DNA of 56,865 nt from Candidatus Fermentibacterota bacterium (GCA_030620115.1 JAUXFG010000003.1:1-56865); one strand, 5' to 3'; shown: positions 5,639-53,545, counted from the stretch's first letter. The notes: generated by a model from the letters alone, not told the origin. Translations and numbers: made by a program.

Positions 5639-5694
5639 AGCTCCAATTACACAGTTCAGGGTCGGTTCTGACCCTGAACTGTGTAATTGGAGCT
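5639..5694. repeat. perfect 25-bp inverted repeat with 6-nt loop
   Basis: AGCTCCAATTACACAGTTCAGGGTC (5639-5663), loop GGTTCT, then the exact reverse complement (5670-5694). It lies between the convergent GT2 and sulfatase-like genes. Confidence 0.9.
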
Positions 5695-6018
5695 TCACCT
5701 GAGTACTGTCTCCGTCGCATTTTCATCTTCTTCCCTCCGTCTCTCTTTCCAGCGGGGCTTCTCCACGATTTTGCCAATGGCCTATGCTTTTTCTCATCCT
5801 CAATTCGCGCTGGAATCTCAACACGACATGAATTCTCCCAGGCAATTGGGTTTCAGGAGAGCTGATACCATGCTTCTTGAGGATCATTCATTCCAACGTC
5901 TTGGTTATGACCGCAGTTCGGTCAGGGATTCGATTCGAAATAAAGATCAACTCCTTGGATCCCAGGGATCAAGGATGTTCATTCTCTTGAGCGTTTGACC
6001 CAGGTTGAGACGGTCTAC

Positions 6019-16041: not shown

Positions 16042-16100
16042 GAGCAGCAGATCTTGGGCGCAGGAGCCCTGTGCCGCCCGAGAATCGGGATGGAAGGCAT

Positions 16101-18580: not shown

Positions 18581-18614
18581 TGGGGTCTGCCCCCTGCTTC
18601 TCAGACTGAGGCCC

Positions 18615-18780
18615 GGGGTCATCGCGAGCGATAGCGCGGCGATCTCGATGGGCCAATGAGATTGCTTCGTCGCTACCCTCCTCGCAATGACTGATGGTGG
18701 GGGGCACGATTCCGGGATCTCTCCATGGGACATTGTATTCCCATCGTGTGCCGTAGTGCTAGGCCGAGACCGTAAGAGCC
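18615..18780 (-). repeat. M3 palindromic-unit repeat, copy F1
   Basis: GGGGTCATCGCGAGCG...GAGATTGCTTCGTCGC...CTCGCAATGAC...GGCCGAGACCGTAA. Alignable with 43906-44127 and, as reverse complement, with 39350-39531. Confidence 0.75.
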
Positions 18781-18869
18781 AAGAATGAAACATCCGCTCC
18801 ATTCTTGGGTCTGCCCGCTGATTCTCACACTGAGGCGTGTTCGTCTCATAGGAAGCCCGTCTTGATGTC

Positions 18870-20267: not shown

Positions 20268-20340
20268 ATCTGACTCCCTTTCAAAAAAAGATCACGATTG
20301 TTTTGATGCGGGATAATCGCCTGGCATTGAACCAAACCTC

Positions 20341-20556
20341 AGGCTTCGCACAGGAATAATTCCACATTTTGACATCCCATCTTCAGCGCATCTAGAGCGC
20401 GGATCTCTCGCCAATCTTCTGCTTTCCCTCTTTGGAGTGCGGTAGCCCCGCGTACTGCGCCTCCCGTCTGCGCCAAGGCTTCGCCGAGGCAGGCCGGTGG
20501 GCACGGCATGCCGTGCCCCTACATGGGGAGCCCAATTCCAGGACAAATCTATGCGC
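20341..20556 (+). mobile_element. M2 element, copy E2 (3' end truncated against the prfB stop)
   Basis: AGGCTTCGCACAGGAATAATTCCACATTTTGACATCCCATCTTCAGCGCATCTAGAGCGCGGATCTCTCGCC.... The interior is nearly identical to copy E4. Confidence 0.65.
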
Positions 20557-21650: not shown

Positions 21651-22282
21651 GGCAAAGTCCCCCCTTGGGGCCCCGCTGGACCCGCTAGAATAACTCTGTA
21701 TAAAGCATGAACTCGTTCCATCAGATCATCCCTTGATCCATGGTTGTCAACCACCACATGACATCCGTTTCGTTTATCCACTTCGGGAAGCTGGAACCTC
21801 TCCAACCGCCGCAGAACGGCAAGGTCTCTCCCCGCGGCAACCAGACGCTTGTGACGAAGCGCCTTGGAGCAGTGCACAAACACCAGCAGGTCAAAATACG
21901 ATCCTATCCCCCATTCGGGAATAAGCGCGGCGTCGATCACTACCGGTCTATCCGGCCGCTGTTGCCACGCTTCGCGAACCTTGCCGGCCAGCCTTTTCAG
22001 CAGCGGCGGGTGCATGATCGCGTTCAACGTCTTCATGGTTGTGCGTCTTCGTAGTGCTGCGTCGGCCAGGCGTGTACGATCCACGCCTTCAACACTCCGG
22101 ATTCCAGGTCCGAACGCAGAAACCAACGCCTCCACAATGGGAGACTCCACCAAAAGCCCGTGTCCTTCCACATCGGCATTGATGACCGTGGCGCCCAAGT
22201 GCTCCATGCCCGAGGCGACGGAGCTCTTCCCGCTCCCAGGCAGCCCTACGATTCCAAGAAGGATCACTGAGCTACTTTGCAT
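21623..22282 (-). CDS. coaE: dephospho-CoA kinase
   Basis: P-loop GIVGLPGSGKSS, then INADVEGH and AALIPE. 219 aa. The 3' end overlaps the prfB start by 28 nt. Confidence 0.9.
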   Translation of the reverse strand: MQSSSVILLGIVGLPGSGKSSVASGMEHLGATVINADVEGHGLLVESPIVEALVSAFGPGIRSVEGVDRTRLADAALRRRTTMKTLNAIMHPPLLKRLAGKVREAWQQRPDRPVVIDAALIPEWGIGSYFDLLVFVHCSKALRHKRLVAAGRDLAVLRRLERFQLPEVDKRNGCHVVVDNHGSRDDLMERVHALYRVILAGPAGPQGGTLPCPRKLWID

Positions 22283-28768: not shown

Positions 28769-28893
28769 GTTTCCGCCCGCTGGTGGAACGATCCTGGGAG
28801 AAAACCTCTGCCTGAATGATCCCACCGGCTGACAGGCGGCCCCAATAACCCACATTTCTCACTCCCGCGACGAAAGCCGGTGAGAAGTGCGGC

Positions 28894-29580
28894 CTACATC
28901 TCTCTCCGAGGTTGGAGGCTGAGCATGATGAGCGTCCTCAAGATATCGGGCCAGACGGTGACAAGATTGAGCTTCGATGCGCCCCCCCGCCGTTCGTATT
29001 CATGACATCCGATTTCGCCAACCCTGCATCCATGGATGAGACATCGCATGACCATCTCTTGTTCGATGGCGAATCCCTTCTCCTTGAGACCCAGGCGCCT
29101 GGCGACGTCGGTCCTGATGGCCCGGAATCCATTCTGGCAATCGGTCAATCGTATACCCCACCGGTAGTTGATGGCGATCAAGATCATGTGCGAACCCATC
29201 ATGCGGACGAACCTGCCAAAACTCCCTGACCACTCGTCGCTGCCGCCTCTTATGCGCGAGCCGATGACCAGGTCAAGGTCCCGGTCTTGCAGTGCGGCAA
29301 CCAAGCGTGGTATGTCCCCGGGGTCGTGCGATCCATCGGCATCCATGAACACCATGGTATCTTCGCCCGCTTCCTCGATGGCAAGGCGCAAGCCTGCGCC
29401 CTTACCATCCCCCGAGTCCACAAGCACCCGGGCGCCGAAGGCGGTGGCGATCTCTTTGGAACCATCGCTGGATCCACCATCAACAACTATGGTCTCATCC
29501 GCATATGACATGGAAGACTCGAGCACTGCCTGAAGAGTTGCTGCCTCATTCTTGGTGGGAATGACAAGGGTTACACCCAT
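28894..29580 (-). CDS. family 2 glycosyltransferase (polyprenol-phosphate sugar synthase-like)
   Basis: VIPTKNEAATLQAVL, VVDGGSSDGS, FMDADGSHDP. 228 aa. Confidence 0.85.
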   Translation of the reverse strand: MGVTLVIPTKNEAATLQAVLESSMSYADETIVVDGGSSDGSKEIATAFGARVLVDSGDGKGAGLRLAIEEAGEDTMVFMDADGSHDPGDIPRLVAALQDRDLDLVIGSRIRGGSDEWSGSFGRFVRMMGSHMILIAINYRWGIRLTDCQNGFRAIRTDVARRLGLKEKGFAIEQEMVMRCLIHGCRVGEIGCHEYERRGGASKLNLVTVWPDILRTLIMLSLQPRREM

Positions 29581-39280: not shown

Positions 39281-39349
39281 CTATCTTCGAGTCTTCCCCT
39301 CGCGACTTCAGCCGTTCCACCCCCCTGGGTGTCTCATTCTCTCCTCCTG

Positions 39350-39700
39350 CAGTCTCGGCCCAGCGCTATGGCTCAAGATAGGAATACAGGATCCCGTAGA
39401 GAGATTCCGGAACCGGAGCACCACCCTCGGTCATTGCGAGGAGCCCTTCGACAAGCTCAGGATAGAGTCCGTGACGAAGCAATCTCATGCTCTCAACTGA
39501 GATCGCCGCGCTACCGCTCGCGATGACCCCCGGCTCCACCCCCAGTCATTGCGAGGAGGGTAACGACGAAGCAATCTCATCCGCTTCATTGAGATCGCCG
39601 CGCGGAGTTTATGCTGCCTCCGGCCCGTAGGGCCTACGCCCCGGAGGGAGCGAAGTCGAAGTGCTCGCGATGACTCCCGAGCCTCAGTCATTGCGAGGGC
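39350..39700 (+). repeat. M3 palindromic-unit cluster (copy F3 plus a second variant unit)
   Basis: CAGTCTCGGCCCAGCGCTATGGCTCAAGATAGGAATACAGGATCCCGTAGAGAGATTCCGGAACC...GTCATTGCGAGGAGC...GACGAAGCAATCTCAT...CTCGCGATGAC (39350-39531). A second GTCATTGCGAGG...CTCGCGATGAC unit carries the CTCCGGCCCGTAGGGCCTACGCCCCGGAG palindrome. Confidence 0.8.
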
Positions 39701-41136: not shown

Positions 41137-42303
41137 ATGATAAGAAGAGCAGTCTTTCTTACCCTCATCGCCATGGGCTGCAGCATCCCTTCGCCTAAAG
41201 CTCCTTCGTGGGATGTCACAGCCACACTGCCCATGGTGGCCAGGACGGTCCATGTCCGAGAGATGGCAGAAACCGAGGACGAATTCTTCTTCGGCGACTA
41301 CGGTCCTTGGCGATTCATGGACCAAGACAGCGTCCTCACAAGCGTTCTTTCCGATTCCATGGAGGCGGATTGGCAGGCCCTGCAAGATCTACCTTCCGAT
41401 GAACCGACCACCTTGGCTATCGGTCCAACCGACTGGGGCCGGAACCCCTTGGACGAGGTCGAAGGGCCTCATTTTTTCAGGGCCTGGCTCGAAGTCGAAG
41501 TCCACCACAATCTTCCGGGGAGCCTTTTCGTCGCCATAGATGTTGAGGGTTGGGATGACGAAATGCGATCTTGCGGCGAGCTGCATATAGAGGTATCCGC
41601 CGAAGCCTCTTTGGACGGTCAGGACATAGAGAATACCACCCTTTCAGCCGGAGACGACATTCTATCGTTCGTGAATCCGTGTGCATTCCACTCCGTACCT
41701 GACACTTTCAGTGCCAAAGGTTTCACCGGTTACTCCCCTATCGGGCTGCCCGTTGGCCCGGACGCCTTCCTTTTTGTAAAGGTCTCATTTCTCACTGCGC
41801 TCGACCTGGTATTCGAGACCACCACGGTAGTCAAGAGAGCCGAAGTCAAGCAGTTGATCATTTCGCCCGAGGACGATGACCTGGGCGACGCCGACATCTC
41901 CGGTGACATGACGAGCAGGATCAAGGAAGCTACGTTCGTTGCGAACGTCTTCAATAATTTCCCGGTTGGAGGCGAAGGATTTTTCAAACTGGCGCATGAT
42001 TCCCTGGCGCTGTCCACCAGCCCAGAGCTCGTGGTGGGGCCTTTCGAGATAAGGGCAGCGCCTTTCGACCCTGCCACCGGAAAACCGACAGGGGTCATCA
42101 CGTCCGGCAGCGAGGTCTTCCTGTCAGGGGATGATGTAGAGATCCTTCATAATCCCGGCCCTGGCAACGATACTCTGTATGCCTCGATAGAGTACGTACT
42201 AGCAGGTACCGGACAACAGAGGGTCTGCCTGTCGGCGCCTGATTCAATCCGATTGGAAGCAGCCGCCATCGTCAAGGCATTGGTGGATTTCGAAGATGAT
42301 TAG
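41137..42303 (+). CDS. hypothetical, probable lipoprotein
   Basis: MIRRAVFLTLIAMGCSIPS signal with Cys. 388 aa, acidic and beta-rich. No family recognised. 8-nt overlap with the next ORF. Confidence 0.6.
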   Translation: MIRRAVFLTLIAMGCSIPSPKAPSWDVTATLPMVARTVHVREMAETEDEFFFGDYGPWRFMDQDSVLTSVLSDSMEADWQALQDLPSDEPTTLAIGPTDWGRNPLDEVEGPHFFRAWLEVEVHHNLPGSLFVAIDVEGWDDEMRSCGELHIEVSAEASLDGQDIENTTLSAGDDILSFVNPCAFHSVPDTFSAKGFTGYSPIGLPVGPDAFLFVKVSFLTALDLVFETTTVVKRAEVKQLIISPEDDDLGDADISGDMTSRIKEATFVANVFNNFPVGGEGFFKLAHDSLALSTSPELVVGPFEIRAAPFDPATGKPTGVITSGSEVFLSGDDVEILHNPGPGNDTLYASIEYVLAGTGQQRVCLSAPDSIRLEAAAIVKALVDFEDD

Positions 42304-43567
42304 CGTGTCGTCAACGGATTTGAGTTCATATCTGCCGCAGAAAGGCCTTTCTCGAAATCTCGGCCTCCTTCTTTCCCTCATGATTGCTTTCCCCACATAC
42401 GCGGGGGCCATGGAAGAGACGTCATATCCAGCCGAGACGGTCACCGGCGGTGCAACGTGGATCCACAACCCCGCCCTATTGGGTTCGGATACAGATGGGC
42501 TATGGTCACTCCAGGTAATCGGAGCCAAAGCGTCACTCTCAAATAACTTGCTGAATCTGGATCTCTACGAAAAATACAATGGCAGATTTCTTTCCGAGGA
42601 GGACAAGGAAGATATCCTTGATAGAATCCCGGGGGATCAGGCAAAACTGGCCGTCCACGCTGGAGCGGAGGCACTGAGTTTCCGGTATGGTAGCTTTGGG
42701 TTTCAGACACGGAGCTTTGCAGGGGCTAACGGCGCCATGGATAAGGATTTCGTCGATCTCCTCTTCTTTGGGAACGAACTGGATCGACGATATGAGCTGC
42801 TCAATTCCGGTAGCGGCTTGGCCTACACATCGTTCGGTCCATCATATGGAAGACGCGCTGGAGAACTAGTCGATTGGAATGTGTCCTTGGGCGGAACTGT
42901 TCGCTACGTGATCGCATGGATGGGTGGCCAGGTAGTGGAGAGTCGCGGCGAGACCGTTACCCGAGTAGATGGCATCAGCGGGTGGGGAGAGACTGTCGTT
43001 CGCTACTCTGAGGGCACCGGCAGTGGTTTGGCTTTGGATCTCGGAATGTGGGCAATGAAGGAGAACTGGGAGCTGCAGCTATCACTGATTGACTTGGGCC
43101 CATCGATTTCATGGTCAAAGGGAAAAGAGAAGTGGTTCACCTTCGAATTCAAGGATTGGACCTTCGAAGAAGAGACCGAACAAGACGGCCATGCATACAC
43201 AAAAGAAGACTCCACCGTTGAAATCGCATCGTGGACAAGCCCCCTGCCTACCAGGATGCGGACATTGGTCGCGTACCATACCGACTGGGGTCAGATACAC
43301 CTTCTCTGGCTGCAGGGACTTCGAACCCGGGCAGGCGTGACTCGCACCCCTCGTTTCCAGGCCGGGACCGAATGGCGCGCGCAACCTTGGCTGCGGCCGA
43401 AATTCGCTCTACAGATCGGCAGCCCCGAGGGGATGGGGATTGCTTTCGGGCTCGGACTCGATGTCGGAGTCTTTCACGGGGATTTCTCCATCCTAGGCTT
43501 TAGGGTTCCTCCGTCCCGAAGCAAAAGCCTCGGCTTCGGCTTCAACCTCGCTTTTGGTTCGATCTAG
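42296..43567 (+). CDS. hypothetical, putative outer-membrane beta-barrel protein
   Basis: Signal LLLSLMIAFPTYAGA. Alternating-hydrophobic strands throughout (GLALDLGMWAM, WELQLSLIDLG, GIAFGLGLDVGVF, LGFGFNLAFG). Confidence 0.5.
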   Translation: MISVSSTDLSSYLPQKGLSRNLGLLLSLMIAFPTYAGAMEETSYPAETVTGGATWIHNPALLGSDTDGLWSLQVIGAKASLSNNLLNLDLYEKYNGRFLSEEDKEDILDRIPGDQAKLAVHAGAEALSFRYGSFGFQTRSFAGANGAMDKDFVDLLFFGNELDRRYELLNSGSGLAYTSFGPSYGRRAGELVDWNVSLGGTVRYVIAWMGGQVVESRGETVTRVDGISGWGETVVRYSEGTGSGLALDLGMWAMKENWELQLSLIDLGPSISWSKGKEKWFTFEFKDWTFEEETEQDGHAYTKEDSTVEIASWTSPLPTRMRTLVAYHTDWGQIHLLWLQGLRTRAGVTRTPRFQAGTEWRAQPWLRPKFALQIGSPEGMGIAFGLGLDVGVFHGDFSILGFRVPPSRSKSLGFGFNLAFGSI

Positions 43568-43756
43568 CCCGGACTTCTCACCGGCTTTCGAAAGCGAAGC
43601 GGCCGAGATGGTTCTGAATGCGAGGCTTGCGACGGAGGACCCCGCAGGCGTATCCGCTGCGATACGTCGAGGAGGCCGACGGAGCGTAACGAAGCCCCGC
43701 GTCGGACGCGGGATGCCATATCGGCCACTGCAGCCGAAAGTTGGTAAGAAATCCGG

Positions 43757-43896
43757 GCTAACCGTCCTCAATAGGTTGGAAACTTCACAAACGAGTCAAG
43801 TTTTGCAACGACGTTTGCGGGTTAGCTGCGAGGTGATGCTGGTTGGCAGAGCAGAGAATCCGACATCCAGAGACCAGGATCCAGTATCGCTGCGCC
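43757..43896 (-). repeat. M1 element, copy C (35-mer end present, hairpin missing)
   Basis: Reverse complement of the 35-mer at 43775-43809, followed by GTTAGCTGCGAGGTGATGCTGG. Similarity ends at ...TATCGCTGCGCC. Confidence 0.8.
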
Positions 43897-43905
43897 CGGA
43901 CTTCT

Positions 43906-44127
43906 GGGGGGTCATCGCGAGCGAAAGCGCGGCGATCTCAATGGGCAGATGAGATTGCTTCGTCGCGGGCTTTATCCTGCCTCCGGCCTGTAGGGCCTAC
44001 GCCCCGGAGGGAGCTTGTCGAAGGGCTCCTCGCAATGACTAAGGGTGGGGCTACGGTTCCGGAATCTCTCTACGGGATTCCGTATTCCTATCTTGAGCCG
44101 TAGTGTTGGGCCGAGACTGTAAATACC
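43906..44127 (-). repeat. M3 palindromic-unit repeat, copy F2 (with inserted CTCCGGCC..GGAG palindrome)
   Basis: Collinear with 18615-18780 plus a ~60-nt insert. It supplies the last ~24 codons and the stop of the 967-aa ORF. Confidence 0.8.
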
Positions 44128-46954
44128 CGAATTCGAACTCGCCCACTGTGTTGGATGGCACGGAGCTCTGCCCCAGATTGTCCATGATCACGATGCGGTA
44201 GAACGAATGCTCTCCCGGATCGCCCATGCTGCTCTCCCAATCCCAGTACTCGCTCTCCCCGAAGATCCAGTCAATCACCGTGCCTTCCCGCGGCTCGAAG
44301 TGAGCCTCGGCGTTTCGATGGATGAACGTCCTGATCGATGGCTCGGGGTTCCCGCTCGTGTCTTCACTGACCGCCGTCCACTGCAGCAGCGCCAGATCGC
44401 TCACCGCTGCCACCGCAAGGTCAGTCACCGGCTTCGGCGGTGCGTCATGGGCAGACAACTCCACCTGATACGGGCCTCCTCCCGTGTGCCAGACCGGGTC
44501 GTCAGGCCCAAGACACTGGGCCGTGAACCCGTTGATGGTGAATCGCAGCGTGTCGTCTTCATCTGCTCCCTCGTCCACCCCCGGCGTCGCCGGATCATCG
44601 CCGTAGGCGATCAGCGGCCCGTAGCACCCCGACGTGGCCACCTCCCATACCCCGCACAGCACTCCATCCGGATCCCACGCCTCTACCACGTCTCCCTCTG
44701 CCAGCGCCCTGGCTTGGAAGGTGCTCGAGCTGCCATGGAACGTGCACACCAGCGATGACCCCACCGGCGTGCCATGGGATGTCAACACGATGGTGCCCAC
44801 GTCCGATGGGCACGCCACGCCCGGCACCATGGCCGGATAGTAGCCCGCAGCCCAGGCACGAAGGATGTATGTGCCCTCGGCTATCCCCAGCAGGAACCAC
44901 CCACTCGCGTCGCTGGAGACGCTCTCGCCGGGAGGATCGGTTCCCACCATGGCGCTCTCAAGCCAGCCTTCCTCGTCCGCGATCCTGCCCGCGATGCACT
45001 CGATGGCTTCCAGCATCGTCTTCACCTTCAACTCAACGAGAAGACCGCATCCGTCACCCCCGTCACTTACCGTGAGCAGCCCTTCCCGGATCTCGTTCAA
45101 AGGCCATCCTACCCCATCGAGCCACAGCTGCAGATCGACGCTCCCGCCAGGGCCGATGTTCCCCGAGCTGGGGTCTGCCCATGCCCATGCCACGTCGCTG
45201 ACCACCGAGTAACTCCGCGACGCCGAACCATCCGTGTTCTGCAGCGTCACCGGCGTGGACATCGCGACTCCGGGCATCACGTCTCGCACGATGCGCTCCT
45301 CCGGCACCCACAGCCACCGGGCGATGCCGTGGTGGTTGCTGATCTCGCACACCTCGGCCTGATGGTCAGACCCGTTGGCGTACCACGATTCGAGCACATT
45401 CAAGAATGTCACCGGCGCCCCCGTCATCACCGCGTTCCAGATCTCCATGATCGAGCTGGACAAACCGTCCTGATACTCATCCGCATGCTGCGTGCAGGCA
45501 TTCTCGTAGGTCTCGTTCAGCCCATCGAACATGTCCCACAGGCATCCCACCACGCTCGCCTCGTTGTAGAGGCCATGGGTGAGGCTTCCGCCGGGATGCA
45601 CGATGGTTCCCTTTCCAAAGTGCCAGGGATTCTCGATCTCGTACCACGCCGTCTCGGTGCCTCCCAGCCCGTCCAGGGCTTTCAGCTTGTACCCTTCGTG
45701 CCATGCTGGAATCCCCAAGACATGATTGACATAGCACTGGTAGAAATGCGCCCACCCTTCGCTGAGGGCCAGCCCAGGCTTCTGAGGGTACGATATGGAC
45801 CATTGGTGCCCTCCTCCACCCGGCGGCGGTGTTCCGTACACGTGGAACAAGAAGTGCCCGAACTCGTGGAAGAGCGTGTCGTCGTTCCACTCGTCAGGGT
45901 AGTTGCCGGCCCCGTTCAAGACGATGGACCTGCTGGAGGGCTGGTATCGAGTCACCGTCTCCTCCCCCGCCTTCCAATACGCCCTGAGGCTGATGTCGCT
46001 CGTCGGCGCCGTCGCCGGGATCCGCTGCCACGCCTCCACCAAACGGTCGAAAATGTTCAGAGGCTCGTCACCACCGGGAACCGGGAAGCAGGAACCGAGA
46101 TCAACAGCACCGTAGTTGGCATACTGATACGCACTGTAGATCGTGTACGTCAGGCTGTCGACGACATCGATAACGTAGATCTGCGGCCACGGGTACCCCG
46201 GGAACCGGCCATAGAGCAACACGGATGGCCGGACGTATAGTTCCTCATCGGGGAAGTCCTCGTTACCAAAAAAGAAGAACCCGTCTTCCCCCAGAATATA
46301 AGGACCACGAAGCATGAATCCCCATTCACTCCAGAAATCGATGTATGCATATCCCCGGCGCACCGGTTCGTCCGTGGTGGTCGGCGACAGCCCATCGTAC
46401 TGTGTCACCGCATGGTCATGGTATTTCGAGTAGCCATGGAACGACCACGTGTACAGCCGCGTATCCGGCGGCGTCTCCGCCTCGCTCGTTTCCTCCCCCT
46501 TCAGCTGATCCAGCCACTTCCGCCACCACGGCCGCTCGAACTTCTTCCGCCACGGCGGCAACGTCTCGTCCCGTATCCGGGGCCCCATCTTCTGCGCGTC
46601 CGCATCGTCCGGATGCGCCTTGATCACCTCGTCCCCCCTCTCCCACGCTTCCTCCCACGTGATCTTCCCATCTCGCGCGTCATACAATGCTTGGTACATC
46701 TGACCGATCGGGTTCTTCATGGCCTTCACCACGTGCCGATACGTGTCCAAAAGGATCCCCCGTTCCGCCTGTCCCACCGCCCACTCAGCGGCCCGCTGCG
46801 GCGTGCCGCATCCATACTCCTTGCCCTTGGCCCACACGTGCACCTGATTGCCCACGAACAGCGCCGCGTCTCGGGGAGTGGTCCCCGTCCGCCCCGCCAC
46901 GTAGTCGCACGCCACCGAGAGCTGTCGCCGCGTGGGCTCATCCACCATGGGCAT
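44051..46954 (-). CDS. large HExxH (gluzincin-like) putative metalloprotease with CarboxypepD_reg-like and FN3-like C-terminal domains
   Basis: LFHEFGHFLFH followed 30 residues after the second His by LSEGWAHF (candidate third ligand Glu). GWFLLGIAEGTYILRAWAAGYYP (carboxypeptidase-regulatory-like). PKPVTDLAVAAV..LLQWTAV...FYRIVIMDNLGQSS (FN3-like). No N-terminal hydrophobic segment. GC-rich. Confidence 0.75.
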   Translation of the reverse strand: MPMVDEPTRRQLSVACDYVAGRTGTTPRDAALFVGNQVHVWAKGKEYGCGTPQRAAEWAVGQAERGILLDTYRHVVKAMKNPIGQMYQALYDARDGKITWEEAWERGDEVIKAHPDDADAQKMGPRIRDETLPPWRKKFERPWWRKWLDQLKGEETSEAETPPDTRLYTWSFHGYSKYHDHAVTQYDGLSPTTTDEPVRRGYAYIDFWSEWGFMLRGPYILGEDGFFFFGNEDFPDEELYVRPSVLLYGRFPGYPWPQIYVIDVVDSLTYTIYSAYQYANYGAVDLGSCFPVPGGDEPLNIFDRLVEAWQRIPATAPTSDISLRAYWKAGEETVTRYQPSSRSIVLNGAGNYPDEWNDDTLFHEFGHFLFHVYGTPPPGGGGHQWSISYPQKPGLALSEGWAHFYQCYVNHVLGIPAWHEGYKLKALDGLGGTETAWYEIENPWHFGKGTIVHPGGSLTHGLYNEASVVGCLWDMFDGLNETYENACTQHADEYQDGLSSSIMEIWNAVMTGAPVTFLNVLESWYANGSDHQAEVCEISNHHGIARWLWVPEERIVRDVMPGVAMSTPVTLQNTDGSASRSYSVVSDVAWAWADPSSGNIGPGGSVDLQLWLDGVGWPLNEIREGLLTVSDGGDGCGLLVELKVKTMLEAIECIAGRIADEEGWLESAMVGTDPPGESVSSDASGWFLLGIAEGTYILRAWAAGYYPAMVPGVACPSDVGTIVLTSHGTPVGSSLVCTFHGSSSTFQARALAEGDVVEAWDPDGVLCGVWEVATSGCYGPLIAYGDDPATPGVDEGADEDDTLRFTINGFTAQCLGPDDPVWHTGGGPYQVELSAHDAPPKPVTDLAVAAVSDLALLQWTAVSEDTSGNPEPSIRTFIHRNAEAHFEPREGTVIDWIFGESEYWDWESSMGDPGEHSFYRIVIMDNLGQSSVPSNTVGEFEFGYLQSRPNTTAQDRNTESRREIPEP

Positions 46955-47624
46955 CCGAGGCCCTCACTGTGCCCTCCCTCGCCCCGGCCAGCCGATCCTT
47001 GATCGCCTGCTCGAGGCCCTGGTAGATCGGGCGGAGCTCATCCCCGCTGAGCAACTCGGAAGGGTTCAGTGGGTTGCACGCGAGGTTCAGGGCACCTCTG
47101 CCCGCATACCACCAGTAGTCCTTCGGCGCCGACGCGAAGCGCCGCGGATCCATGACCGGCACGCCTCCCACGACGTAGTGCAGGAACACGGAAACTCCCG
47201 CGTTCAGATGCCCGGTCTTGCTCCGCAGCACTGCGGTGGCATCCAGGGTGTCGTTCGGCCCGATGTAGGTTTCCACCATCTCGTCGCTCAGCAGCTCGGT
47301 CGACAGGCCGGGATTCCAGAAGACCCGTGCCTTCACCCGCGCGGGGGGGACAGGGATACGCCAGCCCACCGGGAGCTGGATCCGGACAGAGGGAGGAAGG
47401 TCAGGCGAGGGAAACCATGCCCGTGTGCGCACGGTCACCGGCTGCCCCGTCACCGCGGGCCCTACCGGCACCACCTTGACCCAGTCCGTGAACTCCCATG
47501 GGCCTCCGAACTCTTGATCCCCGTGATCCGACCTCCACTTCCGCCAGTAGTCGCTCTGGGCGTCAGCCGACGCCAACCCGACCACTGCAACAAGAATGAC
47601 TCCTATCACCACATGCCATCTCAT
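46938..47624 (-). CDS. hypothetical secreted protein, coupled to the HExxH protein
   Basis: ATG 47624 lies 5 nt after AAGGAGGTG. Signal MRWHVVIGVILVAVVGLASADA. 17-nt overlap with the downstream ORF. No family recognised. Confidence 0.6.
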   Translation of the reverse strand: MRWHVVIGVILVAVVGLASADAQSDYWRKWRSDHGDQEFGGPWEFTDWVKVVPVGPAVTGQPVTVRTRAWFPSPDLPPSVRIQLPVGWRIPVPPARVKARVFWNPGLSTELLSDEMVETYIGPNDTLDATAVLRSKTGHLNAGVSVFLHYVVGGVPVMDPRRFASAPKDYWWYAGRGALNLACNPLNPSELLSGDELRPIYQGLEQAIKDRLAGAREGTVRASDAHGG

Positions 47625-47780
47625 CGTGTCACCTCCTTGTAATGGATACAAATTCCCATTCTCTCACCCTGACCAAATCTACGCGCAGGTCGTATAGGCC
47701 GCAACTCCTGCGAAAACCGCCCCCCACGGACAACTCCTGGGTCGCACTACCTCGTCGGGGAGGGAAAGTGGCTTTGCCAA

Positions 47781-47943
47781 ATATGCGGGTTAGCTGCGAG
47801 GCGATGCTGGATGCTGGTTGCTTGATGCTGGAAGGAGAACGGAACGACTCCGGGTCCCATCCAGTATCCAGTGACCAGTATCGCTGCGCCTCAATCAATG
47901 CGCCACCGCATCATCACTCGTCGGTTTGAGGCGCAGCTTCGCT
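47781..47943 (-). repeat. M1 element, copy D (hairpin + 4 heptamer units, 35-mer missing)
   Basis: GGGTTAGCTGCGAGGCG, then ATGCTGG ATGCTGG TTGCTTG ATGCTGG (47804-47831), then a core and hairpin identical to copies A and B. Confidence 0.85.
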
Positions 47944-47994
47944 AGTGAATCCATAGATTTACTAGCGATTTATCAGGTGACGATTCTTGTGCTC

Positions 47995-48175
47995 AGGGTT
48001 CGCGCAGAAATACCTTCACATCTTGACATCCCATCCTTACCCCAATCTAGAACGCGGATCTCTCGCCAATCTTCTACTTTCCCTCTTTGGAATGCGGTAG
48101 CCCCGCGTACTGCGCGGGGCTACCGCTTTTCCCGAGCAAGCCATGCTTGTGTAGTCCCGCGTACTGCGCGGGATT
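47995..48175 (+). mobile_element. M2 element, copy E4 (5' half), with REP-like hairpins
   Basis: AGGGTTCGCGCAGAAATACCTTCACATCTTGACATCCCAT..., then a 14-bp hairpin GCGGTAGCCCCGCG/CGCGGGGCTACCGC (48094-48126) followed by TTTT. A second hairpin, TCCCGCG-TACT-GCGCGGGA, follows. Confidence 0.7.
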
Positions 48176-48864
48176 GCTCATCGAACAGTCTGTAATGTGG
48201 ACTTATTCTTGCGCGAGTCCTTACGCAATACAGCCCACAACACACAATGGTCAACCCACGAGCCACTGCCCATCGACACGTTGCAGCGTTTTGCATCGTG
48301 GCCGACGCCTGGCACAAAATGTTACAGGAGATGTCACGGAATGCGATAGGCATAGTCGCCGGAGGGTTCGAAAAGGCTACTCCTTCTTTGTAGTGGGCCA
48401 CCATTTCTGGCCCCCATGGTCGGATAGATGAGATCCGGAAGGCTGTGGACTGATTGTCAAGATTGGGCGCGTGCGTCCAGAGCAGGACTGCTTGATTTGA
48501 TAGGCACGCCAACGACTTAGCGGCATTCATTCCAAGATCCCCTCCATTCGCTTAGCGGCCTCACAGTATCGCCACATCATCAGATGAGCCCCATTCTATA
48601 GTGATCGACAGGGTGTTGGGCCAAGAACGCCTTGCACTTTGGCATGGATAATGCGATCTTCGTATGGTGTGCCGCGTGGAGCTATCGCTCAGCAGGTTGG
48701 GATTCTGCGATTTTCAATTGCCAGTCCCCTGGCCACCATTATCAGCAGAACGGCCTTCACGAGCACAGCGGCATGATTGGAATCAGATGCGTGGAAAAGA
48801 CATCTGTTGGAATGACCCTTGATCGCGGAATCGCAAACTCTCGAGAAATGGAGGAGGAGAAGAA

Positions 48865-50217
48865 ATGGCAAAGGGAATGCTCTTGTTGACAGTCGCCATA
48901 TTGGTACTCTGTCTTTCTGCACAGTCATCTCTCGCTGATCCCGGTGAGGAAGATAAACGCTTCTGGATAGGGGGAGAGCTCACCACCAAAGGATTCTCGC
49001 TGGAGAACTACAAAGGATCGGGAGTCACTGATCAATTCGTGCTGAGCCGTGCCATGATCTCCGCCGGGGCTAAGGCCACTGATCGTGTTTCGGTCGGGCT
49101 GCTCGTTGCAAAAACGCGGCTTTGGGGTAAGAGCGCCACTCTTTTTCAGCAGGGAGAACCAGGTGCGTCGGAGTTCTTAACAGGAGGCCATGGCTTTCTG
49201 GACAACTTCGGAGTATACAATGCCTACCTGGAGGTCAACGATGCAGTCTGGGGGTTAGACCTCACATTAGGAAGGCAGTTTGCCGGTGAGTGCGAAGATG
49301 CCTTCTTCTTCTACGGACCTCAGTATGGCCGCTTCTTAGGGATCACGTCCTTGGATGCGGCGAGGGCCGACTGGACCTGGGGGGCGGTAGGAATGACGGC
49401 TTTGGCCGGAAAAAAGGCAGAGACCGGTGCTGGAGACGGATCGGGTTGCGATCCGGAGTACCCGGACTCTGTTGTCTACATCGAAGACCAGGATGTGAAC
49501 ATATACGGACTCATGGCAAAGAGCACTACGCTTGTCGCAGGACAGACCTTTGATCTGGATCTCTACAGCCGCCGCAGAGGTCTCTCCGAGTCCGGCAAAA
49601 CTGATAATCTGGTGCTCTTGGTCCTCAGATCCAGAGGTGAGATTCCCGTGTTCAGCGGGTTGGAATATGACGCAATACTGGCACTGAATGGAGGGAAAAA
49701 CGAGGAGGCGGACCAGACCTACAACGGCTGGTTGGGCCGAGGAATAGGCTACTACAATGCTGATGTGCCATCCATTGGCGGTATGAGGCTTGAGGCAGGT
49801 TATGTCTATGTGAGTGGTGACAAATCCTCGACATCGGACAAGGATGAGCACTTCGCGAGGATGAGCAGAGACTGTTTCTACAGTATGGCGGTAATCGTCT
49901 ATGAGATACTTAACGACAGTGCCCCCGAAGCCGTGAGCAACGTGACCATCCCTTGGGTGGGGCTGGAAATCGTTCCCGATGTCTTTGGCGGGAAGTGGAG
50001 CCTCAGGGCAATCGGCTGTGACCTGGATACTGCGGAGCCTATCGCCGGTCTTGACGGCAAAGGAAAGGAGATCGACATCGGTCTTAAGTACGCTCCGAGT
50101 GACGACCTCTTCTTGAGCATAATGTGCGCTCAGTTCACGCCCCGGGGGATTCTGGAAGCGAATTGGGGCTCAGACCCCATTAAGCAGGTTAGCGGAGAAT
50201 TGACGGTGAAGTTCTGA
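48865..50217 (+). CDS. putative outer-membrane porin-like beta-barrel protein
   Basis: GGAGGAGGAG SD. Signal LLLTVAILVLCLSAQSSLA. Beta-strand-rich. C-terminal ...GELTVKF (terminal Phe, typical of OMPs). Confidence 0.6.
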   Translation: MAKGMLLLTVAILVLCLSAQSSLADPGEEDKRFWIGGELTTKGFSLENYKGSGVTDQFVLSRAMISAGAKATDRVSVGLLVAKTRLWGKSATLFQQGEPGASEFLTGGHGFLDNFGVYNAYLEVNDAVWGLDLTLGRQFAGECEDAFFFYGPQYGRFLGITSLDAARADWTWGAVGMTALAGKKAETGAGDGSGCDPEYPDSVVYIEDQDVNIYGLMAKSTTLVAGQTFDLDLYSRRRGLSESGKTDNLVLLVLRSRGEIPVFSGLEYDAILALNGGKNEEADQTYNGWLGRGIGYYNADVPSIGGMRLEAGYVYVSGDKSSTSDKDEHFARMSRDCFYSMAVIVYEILNDSAPEAVSNVTIPWVGLEIVPDVFGGKWSLRAIGCDLDTAEPIAGLDGKGKEIDIGLKYAPSDDLFLSIMCAQFTPRGILEANWGSDPIKQVSGELTVKF

Positions 50218-50302
50218 GAGGGGAGAGCTTGGGGGCGTGTATTGCCTGAGCCCTCTCAGAAGCTCGCTGACAGCAGACCAGAAACGGAAATGAAGGGGGA
50301 CG

Positions 50303-51337
50303 ATGATGCGTATGCCGCGCAGCGCTATGTGGGGTGTTATTTCCGCCACAATGAGTTTCCTCGTTCCTTTGAATTGTATAGCCGCGATCGCCTTTTCTCA
50401 GCCTCCCTCCAAAGTCTACAAGGTGGGAGTGCTTATGCTTCCTGCCCCTTACGCGATAGAGATGGAGATGGGATTCAAGAACGGGCTGGAGACATATGGC
50501 TATATCGATGGCCGGAACCTCGAGTATATCAAAAGAGTGGTTGGTCCGGAACAAAGCGACTATGGGAAAAATCAAGAGGTTGCCAGAGAATTGATTAGTG
50601 AGGGAGTGGATCTGATAGCCACCATCGGAACCGGCGCCAGTACCCCAGTTTGGCAGGTAGTCAAGAATACGGATATGCCTATGGTGTTTGCAGGAGTCAC
50701 CTATCCCATCGAGGGGGGACTAATAGAAGCGTTTGACAAACCTACAGGCGTCAATATCACCGGCATAAGCTACGGCGTCCCGCCGGAGACCAGGTTGAAG
50801 CTTTTCAGGAAGATGTTTCCCGATGAGGAAAGATTCAGAAGGCTTGGATTTATCTATTCAGGGGTAATGGAGCAAGAAATCCATTATGTGGAGGATTTGA
50901 CCAGCCTCGGCGAGAATCACGGCTTCCAGCTGAAATACATTGACTTTTTTGATCCATCCATTGGGGCGCCTGATTTCTCTATCCTTGAGGCGAATGTGGA
51001 TAGCCTGGACCTCATTTTCGGATGGTATACTCTGGACAGGATTTGTGCCGATTCCACGCTTTTTGGGAGGTTGACCTCCTTCCCGTTGCCCATACTAGGC
51101 ATCACGAGCCAGTTCACCGACAGAGGGGCCATCGGGGGAGTGTTGACCGATCATTTCGGCTTGGGGGCTCAACACGCGAAGATGGTGGCAAAAATCTTGG
51201 CAGGAGAGTTCCCCGGGGAAATACCTCCTCGACAGCCCACCACATATCTGATAGAAATCAACCTAAGAAGAGCGCGAGAGCTCAAGATAGAGATACCGTT
51301 GGAAGTAATCGGGGCCGCCAGCCGGATTGTGCACTAG
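50303..51337 (+). CDS. ABC-transporter-type periplasmic substrate-binding protein (PF04392/COG2984-like)
   Basis: YKVGVLM ... GFKNGLETYGYIDGRNLEY ... DLIATIGTGAS ... PMVFAGVTYPIEGGLI ... NITGIS. Confidence 0.8.
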   Translation: MMRMPRSAMWGVISATMSFLVPLNCIAAIAFSQPPSKVYKVGVLMLPAPYAIEMEMGFKNGLETYGYIDGRNLEYIKRVVGPEQSDYGKNQEVARELISEGVDLIATIGTGASTPVWQVVKNTDMPMVFAGVTYPIEGGLIEAFDKPTGVNITGISYGVPPETRLKLFRKMFPDEERFRRLGFIYSGVMEQEIHYVEDLTSLGENHGFQLKYIDFFDPSIGAPDFSILEANVDSLDLIFGWYTLDRICADSTLFGRLTSFPLPILGITSQFTDRGAIGGVLTDHFGLGAQHAKMVAKILAGEFPGEIPPRQPTTYLIEINLRRARELKIEIPLEVIGAASRIVH

Positions 51338-51404
51338 CCTCGCATGTGCAAGCACGCGCAGCTCGTGGTGAAATATCCGGGATAGCTGCTGGAGGGCAGG
51401 AGAA

Positions 51405-53297
51405 GTGCCGAAGCCTGCGACGTTCCTATCGACATTTCCCGGAGCAATCAGAGGGAAGCTCTTCGGGAGCATACGAACCAAACTAGCCCTGGTGACCATA
51501 GTCATTTTTACAGTCCCCATGACGGTGGGGATTCTCCGTTCACTGAAACTGCTCGGGAATTTTGCCGAGGAACAGGCCTATGAAAAGGTTCGTAGCGATC
51601 TGATTACCTTGAATACGGTCTATGAGAACAGGAAAGGACAGTTGGGTTCCTTTGTTCGGTCGATCTCCGCCGACAATGCCGTCAGGATAACGGCGAGCCT
51701 GGGAAGAGGCTCTCTTCTGGGGGAACAGCTTGCAAGGCATCTGTCCAATTCCCTCAAAGGGGGCATGGTTGATATCCTTACTGTTGTTGATCACCAGGGA
51801 AGAGTCTTGGCTCGGGGGACCAACCCCGAATCAAGAGATGACGATCTGTCGGGAAACGAGCTGGTTGTAAGGGGGCTGGCTGGTGAGGAAGTGGTCGCAA
51901 TTCTGCTGGTCTGTGCGGAGGAAGTAGAGAAAGAAGGATTGACAGAGAGGACTCTTCATGGGTCTGAAGGTCGCGGCGCGGAAGTCATGATTCAGGCAGT
52001 CTGTCCTATCCTTGATGAGGGAGAGGTTGTTGGGGTAAGCCTCGCAGGCTTTCTGGTTGCCAAGAACAGACTGTTGGCAGAGCAGTTGAGCGCCCAGGCG
52101 CACATCAAGTTTGCGATTCTGGCAGAGGATAGAATCACTCTGACGAATATCACTGACAGAGAGAACAATACAATACTCGGAGAGAACGTGGAGATCTCTA
52201 TAGATGAGAATAGAAGCGATCAAATGGGACAATATTGTTCTGGCTGGACATCGATCAGAGGCGAGGAGTACATCTGCTTCTTCTCGCCACTCCGAGATGC
52301 CGGCGGTGGGGATGTTGGTCGGCTGGTAGCCGTGAAGGATGTCCATGCAATTGCCGCTATCAAGGAGAAGACCGCCACCGAGATGGTCTTGATCTTTGCC
52401 GCGGGGTTAGGATTGGCCATAGCCTTGGGTGTGTTTCTTCTCGGATATGCCATGACCACGTCTCTCCGGAAACTCGCGAGAAGGGCAGAGCAGATCGCTG
52501 ACGGCGACCTCTCCACTCCTTTGGAGATCAAGTCCAGCGATGAGATTGGCGTCCTGGCCGACTCGTTCGACCGCATGACCAAGCAACTGAAGAAGTCTCG
52601 GGATGAGATCGAGGAGTACAGCAGGACTTTGGAGCAAAAGGTGGGTGACAGAACAAAAGAATTGAAGCAGTCAGAGGAGCAACTTAAAGCATCACTGAAG
52701 GAAAAGGAGGTTCTTCTCAAAGAAGTTCACCACAGAGTAAAGAACAATCTCCAGGTCATCTCCAGTCTGCTCTACCTTCATTCTAAAGACACCACGGACG
52801 ACAACATTATTCAAATGTTCAGGGAAAGCCAAAACCGTGTGAAATCGATAGCGTTCATCCACGAGACATTGTATCAATCTGAAGACTTGGCGAGAATAGA
52901 CTTCGCAGAGTATGTTCGGAAGTTGACGAGGTCTTTGTACCATTCATATGTAGTCAATGCGGATACAATCACACTCGAGTTGGCGATTGATGAGGTTTCA
53001 CTGGGCATAGATACGGCGATCCCGCTTGGATTGATTATCAACGAGCTTGTCTCGAATAGCATAGAACACGCTTTCCCGAATTCGAGGAGAGGCGGAATCC
53101 ATATCAAGCTCTACTCAGGCGGCGAGAACGAAGTCGTCCTTTTTGTTGGTGATGATGGTATCGGGTTGCCCGAGGATTTCGACTTCCGGAATACGGAATC
53201 ACTGGGTTTGCGTTTGGTGAATAGCTTGGTAGATCAGCTTGGCGGTACTATTGATCTTGATAGGAATAATGGAACTGAGTTCACGATTGTGCACTAG
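51405..53297 (+). CDS. sensor histidine kinase (periplasmic sensor, HAMP, HisKA_2, HATPase)
   Basis: Two TM segments flank a ~290-aa sensor domain. HAMP (LRKLARRAEQIADGDLSTPLE...DEIGVLADSFDRM). H-box EVHHRVKNNLQVISSLLYL. LIINELVSNSIEHAF, GDDGIGLP. GTG start after GGAGG. Confidence 0.9.
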   Translation: MPKPATFLSTFPGAIRGKLFGSIRTKLALVTIVIFTVPMTVGILRSLKLLGNFAEEQAYEKVRSDLITLNTVYENRKGQLGSFVRSISADNAVRITASLGRGSLLGEQLARHLSNSLKGGMVDILTVVDHQGRVLARGTNPESRDDDLSGNELVVRGLAGEEVVAILLVCAEEVEKEGLTERTLHGSEGRGAEVMIQAVCPILDEGEVVGVSLAGFLVAKNRLLAEQLSAQAHIKFAILAEDRITLTNITDRENNTILGENVEISIDENRSDQMGQYCSGWTSIRGEEYICFFSPLRDAGGGDVGRLVAVKDVHAIAAIKEKTATEMVLIFAAGLGLAIALGVFLLGYAMTTSLRKLARRAEQIADGDLSTPLEIKSSDEIGVLADSFDRMTKQLKKSRDEIEEYSRTLEQKVGDRTKELKQSEEQLKASLKEKEVLLKEVHHRVKNNLQVISSLLYLHSKDTTDDNIIQMFRESQNRVKSIAFIHETLYQSEDLARIDFAEYVRKLTRSLYHSYVVNADTITLELAIDEVSLGIDTAIPLGLIINELVSNSIEHAFPNSRRGGIHIKLYSGGENEVVLFVGDDGIGLPEDFDFRNTESLGLRLVNSLVDQLGGTIDLDRNNGTEFTIVH

Positions 53298-53545
53298 CCC
53301 GGATTTCTTACCAACTTCCGGCGGAGTGACCGAAGAATCTGGGTGGGATATGGGGAGAATTTCGAATTGCGGGAATGCGGGAATGGCGGTATGTTCGATC
53401 GGAAGGGTTAGGATCTGGCGGTTTCTTTTCTGCGAGAAGCCATTATTCAATCATTTCCTTCCGCGGAATCGAAGCGTGAGTCGGCACGGAAGACGTTGCA
53501 TGCCAAGGAGTTGTAGGAATTCTGATACGCAATAGAGGGGTTAGA

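What the first reader, a model, noticed from the sequence alone, without database searches (positions are those of the whole stretch)
43757..47943. GC-rich two-gene cassette bracketed by two direct M1 copies and other repeat modules
The two overlapping minus-strand genes at 44051-47624 are visibly more GC-rich than their surroundings. My hand counts of 100-nt samples give 57% and 67% inside the cassette, against 41-46% in the membrane-protein and kinase genes.

Stop-free antisense frames of 488, 236 and 196 codons are a symptom of the same bias.

The cassette is bounded by M1-C plus M3-F2 on one side (43757-44127) and by M1-D plus M2-E4 on the other (47781-48175). M1-C and M1-D are in the same orientation. 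M3-F2 has replaced the natural 3' end of the 967-aa ORF.

This looks like horizontally acquired DNA, either inserted or recombined between repeat copies, or mobilised by them.
Basis: partly seen in the sequence, partly recalled or inferred. Interest (0 to 1): 0.65.

Follow-up and report, generated by a model that had tools for sequence, protein, structure and literature searches.

The report
Foreign secreted-protease gene, now broken
The GC-rich block is one horizontally acquired gene for a large secreted zinc-protease-like protein, since cut into two reading frames by a 29-base deletion and clipped at its tail by a repeat; the flanking repeats are common genome-wide elements and there is no sign that they moved it.

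Summary
The block at 44126-47651 has GC 0.62-0.65 and GC3 0.78. The other 29 long ORFs have GC 0.545±0.02 and GC3 0.60±0.035. The block is also the only tetranucleotide outlier in the contig (z 4.3-4.6). The repeats are real, and M3 does replace the last ~19 codons.

The "two genes" are one gene. In an Eisenbacteria MAG the two parts form one frame. A remote homologue is a single 1209-aa protein. The window lacks 29 nt at 46954|46953, and that junction creates the ATG of the "967-aa ORF". An independent run confirms the deletion. A sister allele (90-97% identical) in other sediments still has the 29 nt in frame.

The protein has a signal peptide, an invariant HExxH…EGW motif and Ig-like domains, but no known family. 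Close relatives number only three, all on ~65% GC contigs with GC3 0.78-0.81. They are 64-69% identical, whereas the host's PolA is at most 49% identical to any GTDB species. This supports horizontal acquisition.

M1, M2 and M3 are high-copy mosaic modules found in 9 of 16 intergenic gaps. M1-C and M1-D are different partial copies. There are no TIRs, significant TSD, integrase, tRNA or proven empty site. Repeat-driven mobilisation is unsupported. This is an ordinary, decaying foreign gene.

The parts
46938..47624 (-). N-terminal fragment of the gene (228 aa from the ATG at 47624; 237 aa if TTG at 47651). It carries the Sec-type signal peptide MRWHVVIGVILVAVVGLASADA (about 47559-47624). It ends at a TGA created by the frameshift.
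   Evidence: P0006 (Fermentibacteria MAG) is 69% identical. Its C-terminal motif DYWWYAG...RLAGAR runs straight into the large ORF in L002 and L001.
46952..46955 (-). Deletion scar. 29 nt present in L001, L002 and the sister allele are missing between 46954 and 46953. The A|TG of the '967-aa ORF' start codon straddles the scar.
   Evidence: Alignment; reading frames. The X1 contig 46854-47218 is identical to the window. The X13 contig leaves the window exactly at 46953 and encodes QSQGVIDSLL|PMVDEPTRRQL in frame.
44051..46954 (-). C-terminal fragment of the gene (967 aa; 965 from the second ATG). It has no signal peptide. It holds a helical region, an HExxH domain, Ig/prealbumin-like domains and a widespread ~100-aa domain. 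The last 24 codons (44051-44125) are repeat-derived.
45854..45868 (-). HEFGH (aa 363-367), a zincin-type motif. It is conserved to remote homologues, together with H383 and E399-G-W (45752-45760).
   Evidence: invariant and nearly invariant columns over 14 sequences down to 20% identity
44807..44995 (-). Weak CarboxypepD_reg-like (prealbumin fold) domain, aa 654-716.
   Evidence: E=4.6e-4, below the Pfam cut-off
44123..44125 (.). Left border of the foreign DNA. Gene homology ends at 44126 and M3 homology ends at 44122.
   Evidence: The X3 contig 44106-44375 crosses it without a difference.
43907..44122 (+). M3 repeat copy. It is truncated by ~20 nt at the gene-proximal end compared with the copies at 18611-18795 and 39327-39534. 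It supplies the last 24 codons and the stop of the ORF.
43758..43896 (-). M1-C, a partial M1 with the right module and a shortened middle module only.
47625..47780 (-). Upstream region of the gene, of unknown origin. The right border of the foreign DNA lies somewhere in it; relatives give no sequence here.
   Evidence: (L001 homology reaches 47640)
47781..47943 (-). M1-D, a partial M1 with the left hairpin module and the middle module but no right module.
   Evidence: Contigs from X1, X2 and X4 join the gene's 5' end to it.
47992..48115 (+). M2 repeat copy, 88% identical to 20338-20460.

Best explanation
The block is a single gene for a secreted multidomain protein of about 1,200 aa. The protein has a signal peptide, an N-domain, a helical linker, an HExxH...EGW zincin-like catalytic region, Ig/prealbumin-like domains and a short tail.

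An uncultured cold-seep bacterium acquired the gene horizontally from a GC-rich lineage. The nearest homologues sit in Eisenbacteria- and Fermentibacteria-labelled MAGs. The gene lies in an intergenic stretch already crowded with this genome's mosaic repeats.

Shown:
- the atypical composition;
- the patchy distribution of homologues;
- the single-gene ancestry;
- a 29-nt out-of-frame deletion specific to this population, which separates the signal-peptide part from the enzyme part and fortuitously creates an ATG;
- replacement of the last ~19 codons by a truncated M3 repeat.

Inferred:
- The acquisition predates the split from a sister population that has the undeleted allele.
- The gene was under purifying selection until recently (24 synonymous versus 16 non-synonymous differences).
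- The split copy is now non-functional or impaired as a secreted enzyme, because the catalytic fragment has lost its export signal.
- The flanking repeats are bystanders. They were either already at the landing site or invaded later. The M3 junction comes from an illegitimate join or deletion, not from transposition of the block.
For: Composition.

Relatives: there are only 3 in 5.8 billion clusters, at 64-69% identity. They lie on contigs of GC 0.65 with GC3 0.78-0.81, and the neighbouring gene in L003 has GC3 0.82.

Host background: PolA is at most 49% identical to any of 185,579 GTDB species representatives. The flanking DUF5723 protein has no relative in GTDB or JGI contigs.

One gene: L002 has one continuous frame. 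L001 runs through the junction. P0008 is a 1209-aa single ORF aligned over the whole 967 aa.

The deletion is real: an independent X1 contig is identical across it. The sister allele is undeleted.

Tail replacement.

Same genome: cassette and flanks have equal low depth and co-varying word shares in about 10 runs. Contigs join the gene to M1-D and to M3.

Selection: 24 synonymous versus 16 non-synonymous differences.

Repeats as bystanders: they sit in 9 of 16 intergenic gaps of at least 150 nt. Repeat depth is 50-150 times the unique depth. The modules occur independently.

No mobility signs: no tRNA, no Pfam domain in the small flanking ORFs, and no plasmid or phage hit.
Against: - No empty site or close relative of the host could be found, so the insertion itself was not seen.
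- The donor is inferred only from MAG labels on short contigs (3-4.4 kb) that could be mis-binned.
- RSCU correlation with host genes (r=0.65) is not an outlier (host genes 0.62±0.15).
- The 535-nt and 335-nt repeat blocks between the gene and the unique flanks are not bridged by any contig I could lay. Adjacency to these particular flanks therefore rests on the original assembly.
- The ORF-C start has a plausible GAGGG Shine-Dalgarno 8-9 nt upstream, and its 967 codons are still open, so a working split gene is not excluded.
- No RNA data were available.
- The protease assignment rests on motifs alone, because both structure predictions failed.
Confidence: 0.6

Rival explanations
1. Repeat-mediated acquisition or mobility. 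The block entered by recombination within an M1 copy, for example Campbell-type integration of a circle carrying an M1 middle module. Or it is mobilised as a unit by the flanking M1 copies.
For: M1-C (right+middle) and M1-D (middle+left) are in direct orientation. Together they would rebuild one full M1 with its middle part duplicated, which is the product expected from a single crossover. Both adjacent repeats (M3 and M1-D) are truncated on the gene-proximal side. AAATA occurs at both borders.
Against: - The duplicated 'middle' parts are only 82-93% alike over 30+33 nt, with large indels between them.
- M1 modules occur independently at different copy numbers, so partial copies are commonplace.
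- By hand count, the chance that both flanks of a gene carry the same repeat family is about 1 in 8, given 9 of 16 occupied gaps.
- An AAATA match is expected by chance in about 10% of trials.
- There are no TIRs and no transposase, integrase or tRNA.
- Relatives end before any flank, so none shows the repeats.
- Joints that skip the block have multi-copy depth (4-11x versus ~3x) and match what the window's own full M1 copies A and B would give.
- The M1 pattern is absent from JGI contigs and from 80 PolA loci.
Confidence: 0.1
2. Assembly chimera. The GC-rich gene belongs to another place in the genome, or to another organism that shares the repeats. The assembler stitched it between these flanks through the high-copy repeats.
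For: The block is separated from unique flanks by 535 nt (43592-44125) and 335 nt (47781-48115) of repeats at 20-150 times the unique depth. No laid contig bridges them. In runs X11 and X13 the right flank 48452-52435 is essentially absent, while the block and the left flank are present.
Against: Depth of the block equals that of the flanks, and word shares co-vary over about 10 runs from 3 studies. Error-free contigs join the gene to 57 nt of M1-D and to M3. M1 was found nowhere outside this lineage's data, so the gene sits in this lineage's DNA. The sister population carries both the block and the left-flank genes at the same divergence of 89-97%.
Confidence: 0.1
3. Native gene with unusual composition. 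It was inherited vertically, and its high GC3 is due to gene-specific bias.
For: GC1 and GC2 are within or near the host range. RSCU correlation with the host is unremarkable. The host lineage is so poorly sampled that absence of homologues in its relatives cannot be shown.
Against: GC3 is 5 SD out, and the GC-normalised tetranucleotide signature is 4.3 SD out, for this block alone. GC3 equals that of homologues and of a neighbour gene in ~65% GC genomes. A secreted multidomain protein is 64-69% identical across lineages whose PolA is below 50% identical to the host's.
Confidence: 0.08
4. The gene is foreign, but the split is tolerated. The two ORFs work as a two-part system, with a translationally coupled N-fragment that is secreted and a C-fragment that is cytoplasmic or exported otherwise. 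In that case the locus is not a pseudogene.
For: The 17-nt overlap, an ATG at the scar and a GAGGG 8-9 nt upstream are visible in the sequence. 967 codons are still open. The Fermentibacteria MAG copy is also split, at another place. Differences from the sister allele are mostly synonymous.
Against: - The start codon is an accident of the deletion.
- The catalytic part has lost the only export signal, whereas the homologues are extracellular proteins; the remote ones carry T9SS tails.
- The sister allele and the Eisenbacteria copy are unsplit.
- Open frames of hundreds of codons also occur on the antisense strand of this GC-rich DNA, so openness is weak evidence.
- The synonymous excess reflects the time before the deletion.
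Confidence: 0.2

Closest known systems
Compositionally atypical, horizontally acquired genes, and pseudogenes from 'failed' transfers (Liu et al. 2004, Genome Biol 5:R64, PMC522871)
   Same: It has foreign GC3 and oligonucleotide signatures, a patchy phyletic distribution, no amelioration, and disabling lesions (a frameshifting deletion and a 3' truncation) soon after acquisition.
   Different: It is a single gene rather than an island. No integrase, tRNA or direct-repeat borders are present. The donor and the time of transfer are known only by inference. The gene evidently persisted under selection long enough to be shared with a sister population.
Bacterial interspersed mosaic elements: REP/BIME of enterobacteria, BOX elements of Streptococcus pneumoniae, and MITEs (named from my own knowledge)
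   Same: M1, M2 and M3 are short (60-220 nt), high-copy, intergenic and hairpin-forming (z -3.5). They are built from modules that occur in different combinations and copy numbers.
   Different: There is no sequence relationship to those families (no Rfam hit). No RAYT or transposase was seen in the window. One module overlaps a coding 3' end.
Mobile insertion cassettes and composite elements, that is, passenger genes bracketed by IS- or MITE-derived ends (named from my own knowledge)
   Same: A passenger gene lies between two copies of the same repeat family in the same orientation.
   Different: The two copies are non-equivalent fragments. There are no inverted termini and no significant target duplication. 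There is no second copy or alternative location, and no cognate transposase.
Zincin (HExxH) metallopeptidases of clan MA / gluzincin type (named from my own knowledge)
   Same: HExxH followed by a conserved Glu in an 'EGWA' context recalls the 'NEGFA' motif of family M1. The protein also has a signal peptide and Ig-like accessory domains, and the remote homologues have T9SS sorting domains.
   Different: No Pfam, NCBIfam or PDB sequence match was found. The His-to-Glu spacing of 36 residues is longer than usual. The fold could not be predicted.

Membership tests
Classical genomic island | Atypical base composition relative to the host | tested here: met
   GC3 is 0.78 against 0.60±0.035. Tetranucleotide z is 4.3-4.6. 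It is the only outlier in 57 kb.
Classical genomic island | Integrase or recombinase gene and insertion next to a tRNA/tmRNA gene | tested here: not met
   There is no tRNA or tmRNA in the window. Pfam finds no integrase or transposase in the neighbouring genes or small flanking ORFs.
Classical genomic island | Presence/absence polymorphism (an empty site in relatives) | tested here: inconclusive
   No relative of the flank gene was found in GTDB or JGI contigs. The sister population also carries the block. Joints that skip the block are explained by other M1 copies.
Transposon, mobile insertion cassette or MITE-bracketed unit | Equivalent terminal elements with inverted termini | tested here: not met
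   M1-C and M1-D are direct, partial and differ in module content. Only 30 nt (93%) and 33 nt (82%) are shared.
Transposon, mobile insertion cassette or MITE-bracketed unit | Target-site duplication at the borders | tested here: inconclusive
   AAATA is present at 44121-44125 and 47779-47783, but a 5-mer shared by such windows arises by chance in about 10% of trials.
Transposon, mobile insertion cassette or MITE-bracketed unit | The same unit at more than one site or genome | tested here: not met
   The window holds one copy. The three relatives share no flank. There is no plasmid or phage hit.
Zincin metallopeptidase (clan MA-like) | HExxH motif conserved across the family | tested here: met
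   H363 (nearly invariant), E364 and H367 (both invariant) are conserved in 14 sequences down to 20% identity.
Zincin metallopeptidase (clan MA-like) | Third zinc ligand (Glu or His) downstream | tested here: inconclusive
   H383 and E399 are invariant, but which one binds metal, if either, cannot be told without a structure.
Zincin metallopeptidase (clan MA-like) | Match to a curated peptidase family or a zincin fold | tested here: not met
   There is no Pfam, NCBIfam or PDB sequence hit. The AlphaFold2 models have pLDDT of 34 and 32 and are unusable.
Mosaic intergenic repeats (BIME/BOX/MITE-like) | High copy number, intergenic location, stable hairpins and variable module combinations | tested here: met
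   Repeat depth is 20-150 times the unique depth. The repeats sit in 9 of 16 intergenic gaps. The fold z-score is -3.5. Module-specific depths and loose ends at module borders show variable combinations.
Mosaic intergenic repeats (BIME/BOX/MITE-like) | Cognate transposase (RAYT or IS) in the genome | not testable with these tools
   Only 57 kb of the genome is available, and none was seen in it.
Pseudogene | Disabling lesion relative to intact orthologues, verified in reads | tested here: met
   The 29-nt deletion is seen against L001, L002 and the sister allele and is confirmed by an independent X1 contig. The 3' end is replaced.
Pseudogene | Loss of expression or function | not testable with these tools
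   The one metatranscriptome from a matching sample has no contig on the region, nor on the flanks.

The most novel reading that the evidence does not exclude
The mosaic repeats of this lineage act as landing pads for foreign DNA. In this reading, the block entered by a single crossover within the palindromic middle module of an M1 copy. That would leave right+middle on one side and middle+left on the other, so repeat-rich intergenic regions would serve as a general gene-capture system in this uncultured lineage.
Probability: 0.07. Interest if true: 0.55.

Novelty: new member of a known kind. Interest (0 to 1): 0.27.

Why it matters
This is a clean small example of the life cycle of a transferred gene in an uncultured, deeply branching sediment bacterium. 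It shows arrival with unameliorated donor composition, retention under selection long enough to be shared by two populations, and then decay. The decay happened by a 29-nt deletion that separated the export signal from the enzyme, and by a junction with an intergenic repeat.

For annotation, it shows that the 'two overlapping genes' should be recorded as one disrupted gene.

It also defines a rare, uncharacterised HExxH family of secreted proteins, and a lineage whose genome is unusually rich in mosaic repeats. None of this changes current concepts.

Tried and rejected
Synteny and empty-site search:
- The flanking DUF5723 protein has no relative in GTDB representatives or in JGI metagenome contigs.
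- The exact flank proteins are not on record.
- PolA loci of the 80 nearest genomes (at most 49% identity) lack the repeats.
- An M1 24-nt pattern has no hit in JGI contigs.

Presence/absence from reads:
- Only short Logan contigs at ~3x depth were available.
- Joints 43807/43841→47803/47814 looked like an empty site. I rejected them because their depth is multi-copy and the window's own full M1 copies predict them.
- No contig of the sister population crosses the M3 junction.

Function:
- Pfam, NCBIfam and PDB profile searches found nothing beyond a weak CarboxypepD_reg match.
- The third homologue search, run with a diverse alignment, returned only P0004, so no deep alignment could be built.
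- AlphaFold2 on the full-length protein and on the catalytic region failed (pLDDT 34 and 32), so I ran no fold search.

Other checks:
- RSCU correlation did not discriminate.
- Rfam and tRNA scans of the repeats found nothing.
- Plasmid and phage searches found nothing.
- The metatranscriptome was empty.
- I considered programmed frameshifting and rejected it. The overlap has no slippery motif, and the scar is a deletion that is absent from the sister allele.

Full report
**Observation**

Composition:
- 1-kb GC is 0.61-0.64 across 44001-48000 and 0.50-0.58 elsewhere.
- The two ORFs have GC 0.623 and 0.647, and GC3 0.783 and 0.777.
- The other 29 long ORFs have GC 0.545±0.020 and GC3 0.603±0.035.
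- GC1 and GC2 are near the host range, so the excess lies at synonymous sites.
- In sliding 3.6-kb windows, only the two windows centred on the block are tetranucleotide outliers: z=4.4-4.6 raw and 3.8-4.3 after normalising for base composition.
- 100-nt windows average 0.635 inside and 0.544 outside (p=1e-15).

Those genes are 0.50-0.56, so the contrast is real but smaller than stated.

**One gene, not two**

The large ORF has only three relatives above about 60% identity among 5.8 billion protein clusters. They are P0002 (an Eisenbacteria-labelled MAG), P0003 (a Fermentibacteria-labelled MAG) and P0004 (a Logan assembly). The small ORF has one relative, P0006, which lies next to P0003.

Translating their DNA shows the following:
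- In L002, the C-terminal motif of the small ORF (DYWWYAG...RLAGARAGTVAAS) continues in the same frame through EEAQSVIDSLL into PMVDEPTRRQL, which is the start of the large ORF.
- In L001, the ORF that begins with a signal peptide runs through the same junction and about 110 codons further before its own frameshift.

A nucleotide alignment shows that the window lacks 29 nt between 46954 and 46953. The A|TG that starts the "967-aa ORF" straddles this scar, so that start codon is a by-product of the deletion.

An exhaustive profile search found P0008, a single 1209-aa ORF. It aligns with the whole 967 aa at 31% identity and has a further 234 aa in front.

The deletion is not an error of this assembly. 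A 365-nt contig from run X1, built by another assembler, is identical over 46854-47218.

In run X13 a contig that is 97% identical over 46833-46953 leaves the window exactly at 46953. It continues with sequence that reads QSQGVIDSLL|PMVDEPTRRQL in frame. So a closely related population still has the undeleted gene.

**The 3' end**

DNA homology to all three relatives stops at 44126/44127, just after GEFEFG. Their ORFs run on for 18-19 poorly conserved codons. The window instead reads 24 codons from M3.

M3 itself is cut short by about 20 nt here, compared with its copies at 18.7 kb and 39.3 kb. The junction (44123-44125) therefore joins a truncated gene to a truncated repeat. That pattern fits an illegitimate join or a deletion rather than a clean insertion. 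A contig from run X3 crosses the junction without a difference.

**What the protein is**

- The N-fragment starts with a typical Sec signal peptide.
- The C-fragment has no curated family apart from a sub-threshold CarboxypepD_reg match.
- Across 14 homologues down to 20% identity, the conserved residues are H363 (nearly invariant) and the invariant E364, G366, H367, H383, E399 and W401, plus several acidic residues.
- This gives an HExxH...EGW pattern of zincin type.
- Remote homologues of this region end in T9SS sorting domains, so they are extracellular.
- PDB profile searches found nothing. Both AlphaFold2 runs failed for lack of alignment depth.

"Secreted zinc metallopeptidase-like protein" is therefore an inference from motifs and context.

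**Foreign origin**

- The relatives lie on contigs of GC 0.65 with GC3 0.78-0.81. The neighbouring gene in L003 has GC3 0.82. The window's copy carries donor-like, unameliorated composition.
- The host is a deep lineage. Its PolA is at most 49% identical to any of the 283 relatives found among GTDB species representatives. Its DUF5723 flank gene has no detectable relative.
- A secreted multidomain protein at 64-69% identity between lineages whose PolA is below 50% identical is hard to reconcile with vertical descent.
- No plasmid or phage carries the gene.

**Does it belong to this genome?**

- In about 10 cold-seep and sediment runs, the block and the flanks have the same low depth (2-5x) and co-varying word shares.
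- Contigs join the gene to 57 nt of M1-D and to M3.
- M1 was found nowhere outside this lineage's data.
- Runs X11 and X13 hold both the block and the left-flank genes at 89-97% identity. The acquisition therefore probably predates the split of the two populations.
- Of 40 listed differences between the two alleles, 24 are synonymous. That indicates purifying selection for most of that time.

Caveat: 535 nt and 335 nt of high-copy repeats separate the block from the unique flanks, and no laid contig bridges them. The exact placement therefore rests on the original assembly.

**The repeats**

- M1, M2 and M3, plus a further element at 43563-43761, occupy 9 of the 16 intergenic gaps of at least 150 nt in the window.
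- Their depth in the source runs is 20-150 times that of unique sequence.
- M1 folds into three hairpin modules. The left module is 3-5 times more abundant than the others. Contigs leave the element at module borders. The modules therefore occur independently.
- M1-C (right plus a shortened middle) and M1-D (left plus middle) are thus ordinary partial copies. They share only 30 nt and 33 nt.
- By hand count, with this occupancy the chance that both flanks of a gene carry the same family is about 1 in 8.
- There are no inverted termini, no tRNA and no mobility gene.
- The AAATA found at both borders is expected by chance in about 10% of trials.
- Read joints that skip the block have multi-copy depth and are what full M1 copies, such as A and B in this window, would produce.

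The arrangement (right+middle | block | middle+left) is what a single crossover in M1 would leave, so that model is not excluded. Nothing beyond the geometry supports it.

**Verdict**

This is a horizontally acquired single gene that lies in repeat-rich intergenic DNA. In this population it is split by a 29-nt deletion and clipped by a repeat. It is a new member of a known kind (a compositionally foreign gene in decay; compare PMC522871). The repeat bracketing is most likely incidental.

Noticed in passing
window 43563-43761; also 53295-53322 and 28871-28900: A ~199-nt MITE-like element has 27-nt terminal inverted repeats (TAGCCCGGACTTCTCACCGGCTTTCG ... CGAAAGTTGGTAAGAAATCCGGGCTA), TA on both sides and a very stable fold (z -4.5). 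Its first TAG is the stop codon of gene 42296-43567. The same terminal motif also begins with the TAG stop of genes 51405-53297 and 28894-29580. This suggests insertion into the TA of stop codons.
   Followed up: partly
window 43592-43695 and 47790-47834: These short stretches reach contig depths of hundreds to about 8,700 in unrelated sediment and soil runs (X11-X14), where the genome itself is at 0-5x. Part of these repeats therefore seems to be shared far beyond this lineage. Yet a 24-nt M1 pattern has no hit in JGI contigs. I could not explain this.
   Followed up: partly
window 39545-39580 (and M3 copies at 18656-18700 and 44026-44050): The motif GTCATTGCGAGGAG...GACGAAGCAATCTC reaches a depth of about 21,000 in run X1. 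It also matches short pieces in Hydrogenedentes and Dehalococcoidia MAG loci. It looks like a very widespread palindromic repeat core embedded in M3.
   Followed up: no
whole window (PolA at 22272-24917): The host is a deep-branching uncultured bacterium from cold-seep sediment. The best PolA identity to any GTDB species representative is 49%. The top hits are scattered over KSB1, Hydrogenedentota and variously labelled MAGs.
   Followed up: partly
L001:1000-1100 (Fermentibacteria MAG contig JAFGKV010000082): The orthologue there is also split into two overlapping ORFs, by a frameshift about 110 codons downstream of the window's scar. This is either an independent lesion or a MAG assembly error.
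   Followed up: no
window 44420-44735 (aa 740-845 of the large ORF): A ~100-aa domain (GDVVEAWDPDGVLCG...YGDD...DEGA..GD.L.F.ING) gives most of the 624 hits below 1e-10 in large extracellular proteins. It often occurs in several copies per protein, and next to T9SS tails, dockerins or TSP3 repeats. It has no Pfam model.
   Followed up: partly
window 48452-52435: In runs X11 and X13 (the sister population) the block and the left-flank genes are present, but this right flank has essentially zero depth. This could be a synteny break to the right of the block, or just low coverage.
   Followed up: no
window 5639-5694: A perfect 25-nt inverted repeat with a 6-nt spacer lies in the intergenic gap 5355-6018. 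It is unrelated to the M families.
   Followed up: no
window 12581-13399 versus 14312-15127: The convergent sulfatase-domain genes 11616-13838 and 13879-16239 are 65-69% identical at the DNA level over about 500 nt in inverted orientation. They are a diverged paralogue pair.
   Followed up: no
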